Assembly (NCBI RefSeq): GCF_041248615.1
Contig: NZ_CP158426.1
DNA from: Escherichia coli
GTDB lineage: Bacteria; Pseudomonadota; Gammaproteobacteria; Enterobacterales; Enterobacteriaceae
Reading direction: 5' to 3' (one strand)
DNA length: 64,000 nucleotides
In this document: positions 1 through 3,000 of the stretch, piece by piece
Position numbering within the stretch: the first letter of the stretch is position 1
Layout of the letters: the number at the start of each line of letters is the position of its first letter
Made by a program: the position numbers

Positions 1-3000
1 CTTTAGACATTTTTTACACCTTTTTCTGTGCAAGACACTTACCAGTGTGCACAATACTTATGCTTTTCTAAAGCCGGGAATTTTTAAGTTTGATTGATCA
101 ATTGTTAACTTTAAAAGTTACTTTTAACAATCACTTAGACGATCTAAAGCCGCAATTAACATAATATAAGTTGACATGCAAGCACTTTTTACCGTATAGT
201 GCGGGTTTCCTACCTACCCAGGAAATGAGTTCCTACCTACCCAGGAAATGAGTTCCTACAATACTATAATTAAACTACAATTAAACTATCTTTTATAAAT
301 TCTTTTATCTTTTAAAGAATAATTATAGGGATACCCGTTAGGGAGTCTTCGACTATCCCTTAATCTATTGGCATTCGCCAGAACCTTGCACAAGTTAGAC
401 TGATGCTTGTCATAACAGATAGTTTTTGTTTTTTGTTTTTTGTTAGTAGTTAGCTGATCTATGTTCGCTTTCCGCTCACAACGAATATGTAATCTACTAT
501 GTGCAAATAGCCTACGGCTTGCGTATGGCTAATAGTCTTGCGCTGTGCGCAGAACGATAATTAACTAACTACCATCTAACGATTGAAATTTACTTGTGCA
601 ATAACCTGAGCGTAAGCGAATGGTTGTTAGTGTCTATGCGCTGTGCGCTTCAATAGTTCCATTGATGAGGCTTACGCCAATCTAACGATCATCAATCTAT
701 TTAAGAGAAAATCTATTGTGCAATACTCTGACGAGTGCAATAACCTTGTGTGCTACGCGTTAGCGATGTTAGCACATAGACACAGACAACAACCAACAAC
801 AAACAAAAAAGAAAGAATGGTTTTAGTAGTTGAAGGTTAAATAAGTTTCTACCGCTTAAATCAAGCCGTAGGCGAGCTAAACGTATATAAGGTAGGGAAA
901 CACTTAGCGGTAATAGATTAGCTCGTTATAGAGCTTCTGAGGAGCTTTACAGGTATTTTATAAGATGTCTGAAATCAGAGTTTATCTATCCACCATCTTT
1001 CCATCATCTGATAAATCAAAAATAAGCCCCTTAAATAAGCCTCTGACGAGATAAACAACCTCTACATAAGGGAATGTATTGTTTTTATCAAAACCCCCGT
1101 CAGAGTGCGATTGAGAGCGTTTTAGACAACAGGGAAGAATTGTACCAGAGTAGGCAGCACAAAAAGCTAAGAAAAATTATAAGAAATTGAAAATGATCAA
1201 GTTTTTTATAAAAGAGGGTTGACAAAGCCGCCGTTATGTAGTATTGTAAGTAGGGAGGGGAGAAACATCTCTCTCCATCTAAATAATCAAATCACAGAAC
1301 ACTGCACTTTGAGCCGTCAGGCTGCAAGGTGTGTTTTTCTTTTATCTAAATAAGGAGTTTTTTATGAAATGGTATACACCGGAACACGTCGTAGAGGCAT
1401 TTAAAAAAGGTGAGCTAACACGACATCAAGTAAGGATGAACAGGAACACAGCGCGGCGCTGTGGTTATCCAGAGCGTGAAAAATGCTTTGACGATGCACT
1501 AAAAAGGTAATGACTCCAACTTATTGATAGTGTTTTATGTTCAGATAATGCCCGATGACTTTGTCATGCAGCTCCACCGATTTTGAGAACGACAGCGACT
1601 TCCGTCCCAGCCGTGCCAGGTGCTGCCTCAGATTCAGGTTATGCCGCTCAATTCGCTGCGTATATCGCTTGCTGATTACGTGCAGCTTTCCCTTCAGGCG
1701 GGATTCATACAGCGGCCAGCCATCCGTCATCCATATCACCACGTCAAAGGGTGACAGCAGGCTCATAAGACGCCCCAGCGTCGCCATAGTGCGTTCACCG
1801 AATACGTGCGCAACAACCGTCTTCCGGAGCCTGTCATACGCGTAAAACAGCCAGCGCTGGCGCGATTTAGCCCCGACGTATCCCCACTGTTCGTCCATTT
1901 CCGCGCAGACGATGACGTCACTGCCCGGCTGTATGCGCGAGGTTACCGACTGCGGCCTGAGTTTTTTAAATGGCGGAAAATCGTGTTGAGGCCAACGCCC
2001 ATAATGCGGGCGGTTGCCCGGCATCCAACGCCATTCATGGCCATATCAATGATTTTCTGGTGCGTACCGGGTTGAGAAGCGGTGTAAGTGAACTGCAGTT
2101 GCCATGTTTTACGGCAGTGAGAGCAGAGATAGCGCTGATGTCCGGCAGTGCTTTTGCCGTTACGCACCACCCCGTCAGTAGCTGAACAGGAGGGACAGCT
2201 GATAGAAACAGAAGCCACTGGAGCACCTCAAAAACACCATCATACACTAAATCAGTAAGTTGGCAGCATCACCGACAAATGCGCTCAACATAATTAGATG
2301 ACTTTTTATATGTTTGAGGATTTTGTTATTGAAATTCTTTGCGCCACCAATGCTCTCTTTGTATCCCGCATTAACTTTTATGGCAGGTGGGGCATTGTGT
2401 GTATGTGCGTCTGTTGACGAGTTTATTACATGATTTTGTATGTTAATGTCATTATGGATCTTGAATCCTCTTCTCGGCACGGTTGCAATTAGCGAGTGGG
2501 TAGTATCACCAACAGCGCGAAATCCGCGTCTGATAATGGATATGTTCTGATATAACGTGTTAGTAGGCACACGCATACCTTCTTCTTCCCAGACTCTGGT
2601 GAAAAAATCTTGTTGTGCAACCACATCAGGAAAAGCTTCAAGTAGAAGTGATAAACATCGACTGGCTGGCGTTGTCAGAACGACGTTAAGATCGGCGTTA
2701 TGTACCGATATTAATTTTCGGTGCTCAGGCCAGAACTCGATATTATCGTTAATAATCCAGTACATACGTCAATAAACACTAAATCAATCGAAATGGAGAT
2801 CACATAGTTTGCTAAGTATATTGGTATTTACGGCATAAATATATATTAATTTTATATTTATCATGATGATTGAAATGAGGCTTTAATGTTGCAACGTAAA
2901 ACTTTACGTAAATTAACATGGTTAACATTTATGCCACTATTGTTTGTAAATTCATATTTCGTAATGCTTCTGAATTTTTCGTGTGATGGTTTTAAATACT

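What the first reader, a model, noticed from the sequence alone, without database searches (positions are those of the whole stretch)
1..1505. Unassigned AT-rich, repeat-containing block with almost no coding capacity, bounded by IS1
This 1.5 kb is visibly AT-richer than the rest of the window. It has no ORF of 60 aa or more on the minus strand and only one low-complexity 65-codon ORF on the plus strand (643..840). It carries a perfect 23-bp tandem direct repeat (211..259), a (tttttgt)x3 microsatellite (423..443), a pair of about 33-bp imperfect direct repeats (about 517..550 and 615..649, both ending in tgcgctgtgcgc) and CA/A-rich low-complexity runs (781..815). By synteny it lies where K-12 carries the ETT2 remnant beyond yqeI, but I cannot recognise any of those genes here. 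The direct repeats could be iteron- or att-like, or simply decayed island DNA.
Basis: partly seen in the sequence, partly recalled or inferred. Interest (0 to 1): 0.55.

Follow-up and report, generated by a model that had tools for sequence, protein, structure and literature searches.

The report
Replication-origin remnant of a phage satellite
This AT-rich block is the control region (replication origin, a conserved folded segment and a promoter) of a 13-kb phage-parasite-like island that an IS1 element cut off in this strain. It exposes an apparently undescribed E. coli satellite family whose origin repeats seem to be targeted by a nuclease carried by some lytic phages.

Summary

It is neither ETT2 nor decayed DNA. 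It is the right two-thirds of a 2.3-kb, never-annotated non-coding region of a ~13-kb element integrated at tRNA-Gly. IS1 (1506-2273) truncated the element here.

- **Iterons, 207-259:** 2.3 x 23-bp palindromic repeats. Across about 60 related loci, each repeat class pairs one-to-one with a class of the element's O-like initiator.
- **Unwinding tract, 260-325:** 12% GC.
- **Conserved core, 326-1135:** modular and base-paired, 85-94% identical between elements whose capsid and tail genes are only 45-50% identical. It is probably a large structured RNA; the strand is unresolved.
- **Operon start, 1219-1505:** promoter, hairpin, intrinsic terminator and the first 47 codons of the operon.

The element's capsid, tape-measure, baseplate and initiator proteins all point to lytic Stephanstirmvirinae phages. 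A few of those phages carry a fusion of two satellite-type initiator DNA-binding domains (86-93% identical) to a T5orf172-family nuclease. This is the architecture of ICP1 Odn, which cuts the PLE origin.

Satellite status and origin function are inferred, not shown.

The parts
1..206 (.). Variant-specific left segment of the non-coding region. The region continues about 950 bp to the left of the window, up to a serine-recombinase gene. Contains a near-consensus promoter-like site at 171-200 (+).
   Evidence: Absent or replaced in the L003, L004 and L005 types (only 46-79 nt alignable). TTGACA-18-TATAGT scores 11/12, but the -35 is deleted in the close relatives L046 and L049. Short patches are similar to the core in both orientations.
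207..259 (.). Iterons: 2.3 tandem copies of the 23-bp unit TTCCTACCTACCCAGGAAATGAG, each holding the palindrome AGGAA-N5-TTCCT. Predicted binding sites of the element's O-like initiator (class A).
   Evidence: TRF gives 100% identity, score 106. The repeat class matches the Rep N-domain class in 13/15, 13/14, 5/5, 6/7 and 2/2 loci. Erwinia typographi has 3 copies of a different palindromic repeat at the same position.
260..325 (.). AT-rich tract (12% GC) with 11-bp repeats ACTACAATTAA x2.4 (263-288) and -10-like TATAAT (265-270) and TACAAT (276-281). Inferred DNA-unwinding element of the origin, and possibly a promoter.
   Evidence: An AT-rich tract with an ACTATAAT-like motif follows the repeats in most relatives.
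326..1135 (.). Conserved, modular, base-paired core. Sub-parts:
- Y-shaped hairpin, 327-360
- TGGC-ATTC-GCCA hairpin plus TTGCACAA arm, 369-393
- (TTTTTGT)3 within a T/G-rich arm, 423-464
- Two ~100-nt modules, 497-592 and 593-715, each with TGTGCAA, TGCGCTGTGCGC and ATCTAACGAT
- Partial third module with hairpin 749-776
- A/C-rich (AAN)n arm, 787-817
- Two ~105-nt paralogous modules, 863-965 and 1037-1135

Most likely a structured RNA of 0.6-0.9 kb; the strand is unresolved.
   Evidence: - Conservation: 94/93/85% nucleotide identity against 45-57% for most genes of the element.
- Folding: single-sequence z-scores are -3.1 to -5.9.
- Compensated hairpin: 749-776 keeps its shape as TGTGCTA-CGC...GCG-TAGCACA versus GCGTTA-CCCC...GGGG-TAACGC.
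- Long-range pairing: helix 371-393/716-738 is 88% complementary over 34 nt in allele 2.
- Erwinia-type counterpart: 25 covarying pairs against 15.9 +/- 2 in shuffles and 1-4 in slid controls; alignment z is -4.3 (+) and -6.1 (-).
- Cross-genus motif: TGCGCTGTGCGC...ATCTAACGAT is also present in the Erwinia locus, which was found through its protein.
1219..1247 (+). Sigma-70-type promoter of the element's early/replication operon (TTGACA-17-TATTGT).
   Evidence: 10/12. The TTGACA is invariant in all E. coli-type variants. Erwinia has the equivalent TTGACA-18-TACCAT.
1253..1276 (+). Leader hairpin or operator-like inverted repeat just after the promoter (GGGGAGA-AACA-TCTCTCC).
   Evidence: -11.9 kcal/mol, z = -3.35. 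The arms change together between variants (GAGA/TCTC versus GGAA/TTCC) (read directly).
1304..1345 (+). Intrinsic terminator (attenuator) between the promoter and the first gene: a compound hairpin followed by UGUUUUUCUUUU.
   Evidence: -17.9 kcal/mol, z = -3.0, 0 of 200 shuffles as stable. 97% identical in the otherwise divergent relatives L044, L059 and L062. Erwinia has an equivalent terminator at L006 7577-7597.
1364..1505 (+). First 47 codons of the operon's first gene (60 aa in intact elements; arginine-rich), preceded by RBS AAGGAG at 1352-1357 and cut by IS1.
   Evidence: Annotated as hypothetical protein WP_000872470.1 in intact copies.
1506..2273 (-). IS1 (768 bp). It joins the truncated element to a truncated yqeI, and no target-site duplication is present.
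   Evidence: Only this genome's record extends the match past position 1505.

Best explanation
**What the block is.** Window 1-1505 is the non-coding control region of a ~13-kb integrative element. The element is bounded by tRNA-3' direct repeats and behaves like a phage satellite of lytic Stephanstirmvirinae (phAPEC8/phi92-like) phages. In this strain IS1 deleted everything to the right of codon 47 of the first gene, including the initiator gene, so the block is now an orphan.

**How it would work in intact elements (inferred).**
1. The element's O-like, HTH_36 initiator binds the palindromic 23-bp iterons (207-259) through its variable N-terminal domain.
2. It opens the adjacent 12%-GC tract (260-325) and, through its conserved C-terminal domain, recruits a replisome. 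The element then amplifies after helper infection, as lambda ori/O and PLE ori/RepA do.
3. The neighbouring 0.8-kb conserved, base-paired core (326-1135) is most likely transcribed into a large structured RNA. That RNA would control replication or expression of the element or its helper.
4. The promoter at 1219-1247 drives the early/replication operon through a leader that ends in a strong intrinsic terminator (1304-1345). Operon expression should therefore need antitermination or read-through.

**The phage side (inferred).** Some helper-type phages carry a nuclease built from copies of the satellite's iteron-binding domains. This implies that the iterons are attacked, and that the attack drives the diversification of iteron and initiator classes while the neighbouring core stays constant.
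For: **Shown**
- Element and ends: tRNA-Gly 3' 22 nt is repeated 13,490 bp away, and tRNA-Thr 3' 25 nt is repeated 12,960 bp away, with a tyrosine integrase at the far end.
- Distribution: the block matches 498 of 5,426 complete E. coli genomes, and 145 of them cover at least 80% of it.
- Iterons: perfect 2.3 x 23 bp. There is a one-to-one association between repeat class and initiator N-domain class across about 60 loci, even though the roughly 1 kb between them recombines independently.
- Initiator: HTH_36 and PHROG 'replication initiation O-like / DnaD-like'.
- AT tract: 12% GC.
- Core conservation: 85-94% identity against 45-57% for most genes.
- Core folding: single-sequence z-scores are -3 to -6. 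Alignment-shuffle z is -4.3 and -6.1.
- Core covariation: 25 covarying pairs against 15.9 +/- 2 in shuffles and 1-4 in slid controls. Hairpin 749-776 is compensated between alleles.
- Cross-genus motif: the pair of motifs is exact in Erwinia typographi, whose locus was found through its protein.
- Promoter and terminator.
- Helper link, structural proteins: the capsid-E-like protein is 26% identical over its full length. The tape-measure-like protein is about 30% identical, and the baseplate-like protein is 53% identical. All best hits are Stephanstirmvirinae.
- Helper link, gene content: no ORF in the element is large enough to be a terminase or portal.
- Phage nuclease: muut gp154 is HTH_36 x2 plus a MUG113/T5orf172-like domain (PHROG 'endonuclease', E 2e-18). 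Its second DNA-binding domain is 89% identical to the class-A initiator.
- Phage nuclease variant: a variant on a 150-kb phage contig also carries a class-D domain at 93%. The gene is present in only 6 of more than 130 related phage records.

**Precedent**
ICP1 Odn combines a RepA_N-like domain with T5orf172, cuts the PLE origin, needs the iterons, and selects for replicon diversification (PMC8263062; PMC7145576).
Against: - Nothing here shows replication, transcription, binding, cleavage or mobilisation. All function is inferred from sequence.
- In this genome the initiator gene is gone, so the origin cannot act in cis.
- There are only 2.3 iterons, and no conserved DnaA box was seen.
- The strand of the putative RNA is unresolved. 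Fold z-scores and A.C-type mismatches favour the minus strand. GNRA-capped hairpins (14 versus 0) and the orientation of promoter-like sites favour the plus strand.
- The upstream promoter-like site 171-200 is not conserved.
- Hairpin-plus-T-run candidates at the end of the core are no more stable than shuffles.
- Within E. coli-type variants the core varies too little for covariation. The covariation test was run on the Erwinia-type relatives, using a structure predicted from that same alignment.
- Sequence-level similarity between the two types is confined to the module with the two motifs.
- High conservation of recombinase plus core could reflect recent exchange of a 'left arm' rather than purifying selection.
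- No iteron-like sites and no significant DNA similarity were found in phage muut.
Confidence: 0.65

Rival explanations
1. The iterons and AT tract are an origin, but the 0.8-kb conserved core works as double- or single-stranded DNA. It would be an array of protein-binding palindromes, a packaging or partition signal, or single-strand initiation hairpins, and not an RNA.
For: - Helices are mostly Watson-Crick and give similar support on both strands. In strand-neutral helices, G.T versus A.C counts are 10:8.
- Invariant palindromic motifs (TGCGC-TGT-GCGCA, TGGC-ATTC-GCCA) look like protein sites.
- No conserved promoter or convincing terminator brackets the core.
- No Rfam family matches.
- The element lacks a terminase, so it must carry some helper-recognised packaging signal somewhere.
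Against: - Nested two-stem hairpins and long-range helices spanning 300-450 nt keep pairing through changes on both sides. Independent protein sites would not require this.
- The two strands differ in fold z-score, which points to G.U pairs.
- GNRA-capped hairpins are enriched on one strand only, 14 versus 0.
- There is no significant DNA similarity to the candidate helper genome, which a packaging-signal mimic would need.
Confidence: 0.2
2. The element is not a phage satellite. It is a defective prophage remnant or another integrative element with a plasmid-like iteron replicon, and its phage-like genes and the phage's chimeric protein are by-products of ordinary gene exchange.
For: - Known satellite families generally lack tail components (PMC10085698), whereas this element has tape-measure-like and baseplate-like genes.
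- Identities to phage structural proteins are low, 26-30%.
- No induction data exist.
Against: - The ~13-kb architecture is constant, with att repeats and an integrase, at two different tRNA sites and across genera.
- The element is far too small for a myovirus and has no terminase, portal, sheath or lysis genes.
- All four phage-related proteins point to one phage subfamily.
- A sporadic phage gene fuses two different satellite-class DNA-binding domains, at 86-93% identity, to a homing-endonuclease-type nuclease. This is hard to explain without an antagonistic relationship.
Confidence: 0.15
3. The block is the substrate of the adjacent small serine recombinase: an invertible or shufflon-like region, or an extended res site. 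Its repeats would be crossover sites.
For: - A 183-aa resolvase/invertase-family gene abuts the non-coding region and is co-conserved with it at 96-97%.
- The region holds many inverted and direct repeats.
- Module gains and losses have their end-points exactly at TGCGCTGTGCGC, TGTGCAA and ATCTAACGAT.
Against: - None of about 60 loci shows any segment in inverted orientation relative to its flanks.
- Deletions between 10-12-bp direct repeats are what slippage or homologous recombination produce.
- No hix/gix- or res-like site architecture was recognised inside the window. Candidate res-like inverted repeats lie next to the recombinase gene, outside the window (read directly).
Confidence: 0.07
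4. The block is neutral, decaying, H-NS-silenced AT-rich island DNA (or an ETT2 remnant) with chance repeats.
For: - The block is AT-rich and has no ORFs.
- It lies beside IS1 at a known island hotspot, and the element is truncated in this strain.
- The microsatellite copy number drifts between strains.
Against: - The core is better conserved than almost every gene of the element.
- It is 99.8-100% identical to copies in intact elements.
- Motifs and architecture are retained in Erwinia.
- Fold z-scores and covariation exceed their controls.
- Repeat class tracks initiator class.
- No ETT2 gene or similarity is present.
Confidence: 0.03

Closest known systems
PLE (Vibrio cholerae satellite of lytic phage ICP1): origin in the non-coding region, RepA, and the phage's origin-directed nuclease Odn (PMC7145576, PMC8263062)
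   Same: - Integrative island of 13-18 kb that appears tied to a lytic myovirus.
- The origin is a set of semi-palindromic iterons in a large non-coding region, next to an initiator whose N-terminal domain sets the specificity.
- Replicon modules (iteron plus N-domain) are swapped between otherwise similar elements.
- Some helper phages carry a chimera of the initiator's DNA-binding domain and a T5orf172-family nuclease.
   Different: - No sequence relationship: the initiator is HTH_36/O-like, not RepA_N, and integration uses a tyrosine rather than a large serine integrase.
- The host is E. coli and other Enterobacterales.
- The element carries capsid-E-like, tape-measure-like and baseplate-like genes.
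- The phage chimera has two tandem DNA-binding domains of different classes at 86-93% identity (42% in Odn).
- Nothing has been tested experimentally.
Phage lambda ori and O protein
   Same: - Tandem repeats of about 20 bp, each an inverted repeat, flanked by an AT-rich tract.
- The initiator has an N-terminal iteron-binding domain and a C-terminal recruiting domain, and the PHROG hits are 'replication initiation O-like'.
   Different: - The origin lies about 1.4 kb upstream of the initiator gene, not inside it.
- There are 2.3-4 repeats of 17-23 bp with unrelated sequence.
- No P-like helicase loader gene was recognised.
ColE1-type replication control RNAs (RNA II primer and RNA I antisense)
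   Same: A several-hundred-nucleotide, hairpin-rich region lies immediately beside an origin. The hairpins are maintained in a way that leaves both strands foldable.
   Different: ColE1 needs no initiator or iterons. No promoter, RNase H site or sequence similarity was identified here. This is only a functional analogy.
Known E. coli satellite families: P4-like, PICI and capsid-forming PICI (SatelliteFinder, PMC10085698)
   Same: Small tRNA-integrated island with an integrase, a replication module and genes that could redirect helper morphogenesis.
   Different: - None of the family markers was detected (psu/sid/delta/alpha primase, AlpA plus pri-rep plus terS, HK97 capsid plus protease, portal and HNH).
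- The capsid gene is lambda-E-type and tail-related genes are present.
- The candidate helper is a large virulent phage, not a temperate one.
Lambda pR'-tR' (6S RNA) / P4 leader-type transcription attenuation
   Same: A constitutive-looking promoter is followed within about 90 nt by a strong intrinsic terminator ahead of the operon, which implies control by antitermination.
   Different: No Q-, N- or CI-RNA-like component was identified. The 60-aa arginine-rich first gene product is only a guess as an RNA-binding factor.

Membership tests
Iteron-type replication origin (lambda O / PLE RepA kind) | Two or more tandem direct repeats of about 17-30 bp, often with internal dyad symmetry | tested here: met
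   207-259 holds 2.3 x 23 bp at 100% identity with the palindrome AGGAA-N5-TTCCT. Relatives have 3-4 copies.
Iteron-type replication origin (lambda O / PLE RepA kind) | Adjacent AT-rich unwinding region | tested here: met
   260-325 is 12% GC. The tract is present in all relatives.
Iteron-type replication origin (lambda O / PLE RepA kind) | Cognate initiator gene linked to the repeats | tested here: not met
   Not met in this window, because IS1 removed the gene. It is met in intact elements, where an HTH_36/O-like protein is encoded about 330 bp beyond the block.
Iteron-type replication origin (lambda O / PLE RepA kind) | Specificity: repeat sequence co-varies with the initiator's DNA-binding domain | tested here: met
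   One-to-one association across classes A, B, C/H, D, G and J.
Iteron-type replication origin (lambda O / PLE RepA kind) | Initiator binding and origin firing demonstrated | not testable with these tools
   Needs EMSA or footprinting and replication assays.
Phage satellite | Integrated, att-bounded element of about 7-20 kb with an integrase | tested here: met
   Elements of 13.5 and 13.0 kb between tRNA-3' repeats, with a tyrosine integrase. In this window only the left 3.8 kb survives.
Phage satellite | Lacks a full virion or packaging gene set but carries genes related to a specific helper | tested here: met
   No ORF is large enough for a terminase or portal. The capsid-E-like, tape-measure-like, baseplate-like and initiator N-domain proteins all have their best hits in Stephanstirmvirinae.
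Phage satellite | Helper-dependent induction, replication and packaging | not testable with these tools
   Needs infection experiments.
P4-like / PICI / cfPICI / PLE (the four SatelliteFinder families) | Family-specific core genes | tested here: not met
   PHROG, NCBIfam and Pfam scans of the element's proteins gave only invertase, O-like initiator, capsid E, tape measure, tail fibre/baseplate and integrase. The SatelliteFinder models themselves were not run.
Odn-like origin-directed nuclease (phage side of the system) | Phage protein that fuses a satellite-initiator DNA-binding domain to a T5orf172/GIY-YIG-family nuclease and is sporadic among phage isolates | tested here: met
   - Domains: muut gp154 has HTH_36 x2 plus MUG113 (E 4.6e-4), a weak T5orf172 hit and PHROG 681 'endonuclease' (E 2e-18).
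- Identity: 89% and 93% to class-A and class-D initiators.
- Nuclease relatives: the C-terminal domain is 37% identical to ICP1 homing endonucleases.
- Distribution: the gene is in 6 of more than 130 related phage records.
-.
Odn-like origin-directed nuclease (phage side of the system) | Cleaves the satellite origin in an iteron-dependent way | not testable with these tools
   Needs a nuclease assay on 207-259.
Structured non-coding RNA | Conserved secondary structure with compensatory changes above controls | tested here: inconclusive
   - Erwinia-type relatives: 25 covarying pairs against 15.9 +/- 2, with 0 of 500 shuffles reaching that; slid controls give 1-4; alignment z is -4.3 and -6.1.
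- E. coli type, which includes the window: too little variation for the test, though one doubly compensated hairpin and fold z-scores of -3 to -6 support structure.
Structured non-coding RNA | Defined transcription unit (promoter, strand, 3' end) | tested here: inconclusive
   Strand indicators conflict (versus 49, 85). The promoter-like site 171-200 is not conserved. The 3' hairpins are weak.
Structured non-coding RNA | Membership of a described RNA family | tested here: not met
   No Rfam 15 match at E <= 1-5 in the window or the whole element, other than the tRNA. No tRNA or tmRNA was found in the region.
ETT2 island remnant | Homology to ETT2 genes or pseudogenes | tested here: not met
   The block belongs to a separate att-bounded element. 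ETT2-side genes start only after IS1, with the truncated yqeI.
att / site-specific recombination site | Repeat shared with the integration target and found at both element ends | tested here: not met
   The att core is the tRNA 3' end. The repeats inside the block are internal to the element.

The most novel reading that the evidence does not exclude
The window holds the orphaned origin and control region of a previously undescribed, PLE-like family of satellites that parasitise virulent Stephanstirmvirinae phages in E. coli and other Enterobacterales. Two further points would follow.

- The family is locked in an origin-targeting arms race with phage-encoded, dual-specificity Odn-like nucleases.
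- Its most conserved part, the 0.6-0.9-kb base-paired core next to the origin, is a new class of large structured non-coding RNA that controls satellite replication or helper takeover.
Probability: 0.3. Interest if true: 0.85.

Novelty: new variant of a known kind. Interest (0 to 1): 0.62.

Why it matters
**A tractable E. coli counterpart of PLE/ICP1.** If this reading is right, E. coli would have its own version of the Vibrio cholerae PLE/ICP1 system, which is so far the only well-studied satellite of a virulent phage. The element is present in roughly a tenth of complete E. coli genomes, including O26:H11 and O104:H4 pathogens. Its apparent helpers are phAPEC8/phi92-like phages, which are popular phage-therapy candidates.

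**Practical consequence.** Such satellites may limit or alter the outcome of treatment with those phages. The phage nuclease gene may decide which strains a phage can kill productively.

**Generality of the counter-defence.** An independent occurrence of an origin-directed chimeric nuclease would show that stealing the parasite's own DNA-binding domain is a general phage strategy.

**A candidate new RNA.** The conserved core could add a large structured RNA to the short list known from bacterial mobile elements.

**Annotation.** A 1.5-2.3-kb region that pipelines leave blank in hundreds of genomes gets a testable assignment.

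Tried and rejected
- **Rfam:** scans of the window and of a whole intact element found nothing but the tRNA. ARAGORN found no tRNA or tmRNA in the region.
- **DNA similarity:** blastn of the block against 50,697 phage records found nothing. Against plasmids there were only two E. coli records, one of them a 4.9-Mb record.
- **Classic iteron arrays by k-mer counting:** no k-mer exceeds 3-5 copies apart from the 23-mer.
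- **More relatives:** a genome-wide protein-pattern scan gave only 3 loci. A second viral-contig motif scan gave 0. A viral-contig protein scan returned mostly contigs already held.
- **Iterons or other conserved motifs in phage muut:** no significant matches. The phage's own 4 x 16-bp repeats share only a GAAATGAkT core with the satellite iteron.
- **Strand assignment:** G.T versus A.C counts in strand-neutral helices gave 10:8, which decides nothing. A stricter helix finder found too few helices.
- **Terminators at the end of the core:** hairpin-plus-T-run candidates are no more stable than shuffles.
- **Covariation within E. coli-type variants:** too little variation, since the variants are a mosaic of 2-3 alleles per block.
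- **HMM of the Erwinia-type core against the window:** significant only at the module with the two motifs. Homology of the rest rests on shared order and architecture.
- **NCBIfam on the small proteins:** uninformative.
- **Literature:** six searches, including by protein accession, found no description of the element, its non-coding region or a satellite of Stephanstirmvirinae.
- **Rejected readings:** ETT2 remnant, att site, small-ORF cluster (module indels of 98, 7 and 4 nt are not multiples of three), sigma-54 promoter, DnaA-box cluster, and an invertible segment (no inverted isoform in about 60 loci).

Full report
**1. Observation**

The window is part of the E. coli NRZ14408 chromosome (H1). 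Positions 1-1505 are 37.3% GC, against 50.9% for the window beyond IS1.

The only ORF of 60 aa or more is 643..840 (+). The longest stop-free run, 80 codons, is what shuffled sequence of this composition gives (81 +/- 16).

Tandem Repeats Finder confirms the repeats:
- a perfect 23-bp repeat at 207-259, 2.3 copies;
- (TTTTTGT)3 at 423-444;
- CAACAAC-type repeats at 787-806.

TGCGCTGTGCGC occurs twice, at 539-550 and 637-648.

IS1 occupies 1506-2273. Its flanks differ, so the junction was made by a deletion and not by a simple insertion.

**2. What the block belongs to**

The block matches 498 of 5,426 complete E. coli genomes, and 145 of them cover at least 80% of it. Only this genome continues the match into IS1.

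In intact copies, such as strain 97-3250, the block is the right two-thirds of a 2.3-kb gap in which no feature is annotated in any of the records listed. The gap lies between a divergently oriented 183-aa serine recombinase gene and a string of small genes.

The element is bounded by a repeat of the tRNA 3' end:
- 22 nt of tRNA-Gly, 13,490 bp apart;
- 25 nt of tRNA-Thr, 12,960 bp apart, in O104:H4.

A tyrosine integrase sits at the far end.

Its recognisable products are:
- a resolvase/invertase-family recombinase;
- an HTH_36, 'O-like/DnaD-like' initiator;
- a lambda-E-type capsid protein;
- a tape-measure-like protein;
- in most copies, a baseplate/tail-fibre-like protein;
- the integrase.

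No ORF is large enough to be a terminase or portal.

In NRZ14408, IS1 removed everything after codon 47 of the first gene and joined the stump to a truncated yqeI. The block is therefore neither ETT2 nor an att site. As sequence it is not decayed either, being 99.8-100% identical to intact copies.

**3. Anatomy of the block**

Comparison of 35 distinct E. coli-type variants and 11 GC-richer 'Erwinia-type' relatives shows one constant order. The Erwinia-type set includes Erwinia typographi, which was found through the initiator protein and not through DNA.

The order is:
1. tandem palindromic repeats;
2. an AT-rich tract;
3. a long conserved region;
4. one or more TTGACA promoters;
5. a leader hairpin;
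6. an intrinsic terminator;
7. the first gene.

In the window these parts are at 207-259, 260-325 (12% GC), 326-1135, 1219-1247, 1253-1276, 1304-1345 and 1364-1505.

**4. The repeats are iterons**

The repeat sequence differs between elements and falls into classes. Class A is CCYAGGAAATGAKTTCC, as in the window. The other classes are B, C/H, D, G and J.

Clustering the first ~125 residues of the initiator gives the same partition:

| Initiator cluster | Repeat class | Loci agreeing |
|---|---|---|
| 0 | A | 13/15 |
| 1 | D | 13/14 |
| 2 | B | 5/5 |
| 3 and 4 | C/H | 6/7 |
| 5 | J | 2/2 |
| Erwinia (L006) | G | 1/1 |

The C-terminal half of the initiator, and the ~1 kb between the repeats and the gene, are shared across classes. 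The coupling is therefore functional and not merely due to linkage.

Palindromic ~20-bp repeats beside an AT-rich tract, bound by the N-domain of an O-like protein, form the lambda ori/O and PLE ori/RepA design. This rests on established knowledge and on PMC7145576 and PMC8263062. Binding and firing are inferred, not shown. In this strain the initiator gene is absent.

**5. The conserved core (326-1135)**

*Conservation.* Between element variants this region is 94, 93 and 85% identical. The capsid gene is 45-73%, the tape-measure gene about 50% and most small genes 45-57%. Only the recombinase is higher, at 96-97%.

*Modules.* The core is built of degenerate modules. Two to three are ~100-nt units sharing TGTGCAA, TGCGCTGTGCGC and ATCTAACGAT. 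One or two are ~105-nt units (863-965 and 1037-1135). Units are gained and lost between short direct repeats.

*Folding.*
- It folds better than dinucleotide shuffles. The window gives z = -3.1 (+) and -4.6 (-). Across six representatives the minus strand gives -2.8 to -5.9 and the plus strand -0.8 to -5.1.
- Hairpin 749-776 keeps both its stems in a 35%-diverged allele through three double substitutions.
- Segment 361-394 is 88% complementary over 34 nt to the allele-2 sequence at 715-748.

*Erwinia-type alignment.*
- RNAalifold predicts 104 pairs.
- 25 of them change on both sides, against 15.9 +/- 2.0 in shuffles (0 of 500 reach it) and 1-4 when partners are slid.
- The covariation score is 0.209, against 0.114 in shuffles and 0.03-0.05 when slid.
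- Column-shuffle z of the consensus energy is -4.3 (+) and -6.1 (-).

*Caveats.*
- The structure was predicted from the same alignment.
- The variants are mosaics, so independent events are few.
- E. coli-type variants vary too little for a test of their own.
- Profile similarity between the two types is significant only at the module with the two motifs.

*Strand.* The indicators conflict.
- Energies and A.C-type mismatches favour the minus strand.
- GNRA-capped hairpins favour the plus strand: 14 versus 0, with ~3.5 expected. Promoter-like sites point the same way.
- G.T versus A.C counts in strand-neutral helices are 10:8.

No Rfam family matches.

I read the core as most likely a large structured RNA, possibly with both strands mattering as in ColE1 RNA I/RNA II. 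That is a probability of about 0.55, not a demonstration. The main rival is a DNA-level function.

**6. Promoter and leader**

TTGACA-17-TATTGT (1219-1247) is followed by two features:
- a hairpin whose arms co-vary between variants (z = -3.35);
- a compound hairpin of -17.9 kcal/mol (z = -3.0) ending in UGUUUUUCUUUU, 20 nt before the ribosome-binding site.

The terminator is 97% identical even in otherwise divergent relatives. The operon, which contains the initiator gene, should therefore need read-through or antitermination. How that happens is unknown.

**7. Which phage, and the nuclease**

*Links to one phage subfamily.*
- The initiator's N-domain is 75% (window type) to 89% (L003 type) identical to part of gp154 of phage muut. 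Muut is a 146-kb virulent Stephanstirmvirinae phage.
- The capsid-like protein (26%, full length), the tape-measure-like protein (~30%) and the baseplate-like protein (53%) have their best phage hits in the same subfamily. The baseplate homologue lies directly after the tape-measure homologue in the phage.

*The phage protein.*
- gp154 is not an initiator. It has two HTH_36 domains followed by a MUG113/T5orf172-like domain (PHROG 681 'endonuclease', E 2e-18).
- That C-terminal domain is 30-44% identical to T5 and Stephanstirmvirinae endonucleases and 37% identical to ICP1 homing endonucleases.
- A variant on a 150-kb metagenomic contig sits in the same gene neighbourhood. It carries a first domain 93% identical to the class-D initiator, plus the class-A domain.
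- The gene occurs in 6 of more than 130 related phage records.

*Precedent.* This is the architecture of ICP1 Odn (PMC8263062):
- a RepA_N-like domain (42% identical) fused to T5orf172;
- it cuts the PLE origin and needs the iterons;
- it selects for replicon diversification.

*Inference.* The elements are satellites of these phages, and the iterons in the window are a target of such a nuclease. This also explains why iteron and N-domain classes diversify beside a constant core. Muut itself has no class-A sites.

**8. Comparison with known systems and novelty**

Functionally the closest system is PLE/ICP1. The origin design is lambda-like. The attenuated leader recalls lambda pR'-tR' or P4.

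The element is not a member of the P4-like, PICI, cfPICI or PLE families, since no family marker was detected. Unlike those families it carries tail-related genes (PMC10085698).

Six literature searches found no description of the element, of its non-coding region, or of any satellite of Stephanstirmvirinae. This is absence in the searchable library only.

I classify it as a new variant of a known kind: a phage satellite with an iteron origin and a phage origin-directed nuclease. The possibility of a new large RNA remains open.

**9. Verdict**

The block is real. In this strain it is a dead remnant. Its sequence is the best-conserved non-coding part of an apparently uncharacterised satellite family.

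| Claim | Confidence |
|---|---|
| Iterons plus AT tract are an origin | about 0.8 |
| The element is a satellite of Stephanstirmvirinae-like phages | about 0.75 |
| gp154-type proteins are origin-directed nucleases | about 0.6 |
| The core is a structured RNA | about 0.55 |
| The whole picture as stated | 0.65 |

Noticed in passing
L079 3635-4633 (phage muut MN850573.1 81258-82256, gp154); L083 4001-4984: A sporadic Stephanstirmvirinae gene fuses two satellite-initiator-type HTH_36 domains to a T5orf172/MUG113-like endonuclease domain. The two domains are 89% and 93% identical to two different initiator classes. This is the same design as ICP1 Odn.
   Followed up: yes
L002 19115-19992 (second non-coding gap of the intact element; not in the window): An ~880-bp gap before the capsid module holds a TTGACT-17-TAGAAT promoter-like site and two hairpin-plus-T-run terminators (about 19380-19412 and 19918-19950). 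It may encode small RNAs or the late-gene control region, and is only ~56% conserved between variants.
   Followed up: partly
L002 14055-15000 (left part of the same non-coding region, outside the window): - The first ~411 nt next to the recombinase gene are 88-94% conserved and contain inverted repeats (TGTGTAGTGAT / ATCACTACACG) that could be a res site.
- A GNRA hairpin GCAGCC-GTAA-GGCTGT and a CAACAA/TTGTTG long stem lie further in.
- Part of it (query 251-427) is found at 80-90% identity in several hundred other E. coli genomes in other contexts.
   Followed up: partly
L081 about 15050-15500 (phage muut 65050-65500): Muut has a 1.7-kb non-coding gap with 4 x 16-bp repeats TGTATGAAATGATTAC followed by AT-rich DNA with repeated AGGTTAGAT, which looks like a candidate phage origin. 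The repeat shares only GAAATGAkT with the satellite's class-A iteron. The gap also holds many Fur-box-like GATAATGATTATCATT motifs.
   Followed up: partly
window 423-444 and 787-817: The (TTTTTGT)n tract varies from 2 to 4 copies, and the complementary A/C-rich arm also has 4-nt indels between strains. The length changes do not track each other. On the plus strand the A/C-rich run reads as an (AAN)n tract, the kind Hfq binds (from memory, not tested).
   Followed up: partly
window 1506-2765: IS1 has no target-site duplication and abuts a yqeI gene that RefSeq marks as incomplete. An IS1-mediated deletion therefore removed about 9 kb of the element, any adjacent island and the ETT2 genes between glyU and yqeI. 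The junction is unique among 5,426 complete genomes.
   Followed up: partly
L031 about 4236-4480; L028, L032 and L035 upstream of the iterons: Some variants carry a second set of iterons of another class, or a duplicated copy of window 305-377 on the other side of the iterons. The origin is therefore flanked by the same hairpin on both sides. These may be origin rearrangements of the kind reported as Odn-escape variants in PLE.
   Followed up: no
L006 6262-6555 (Erwinia typographi): In Erwinia-type relatives a ~97-aa ORF ending in an HTH-like ...SRATIYRWV motif lies just upstream of the iterons. E. coli-type elements have no counterpart.
   Followed up: no
L002 16364-16746; window 1364-1505: The first gene product (60 aa) is arginine-rich (TRHQVRMNRNTARR). 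The next ORF (58 aa) looks like a ribbon-helix-helix protein and is 100% conserved between L002, L003 and L004. Both are candidate regulators of the leader or the core, and no family match was found for either.
   Followed up: partly
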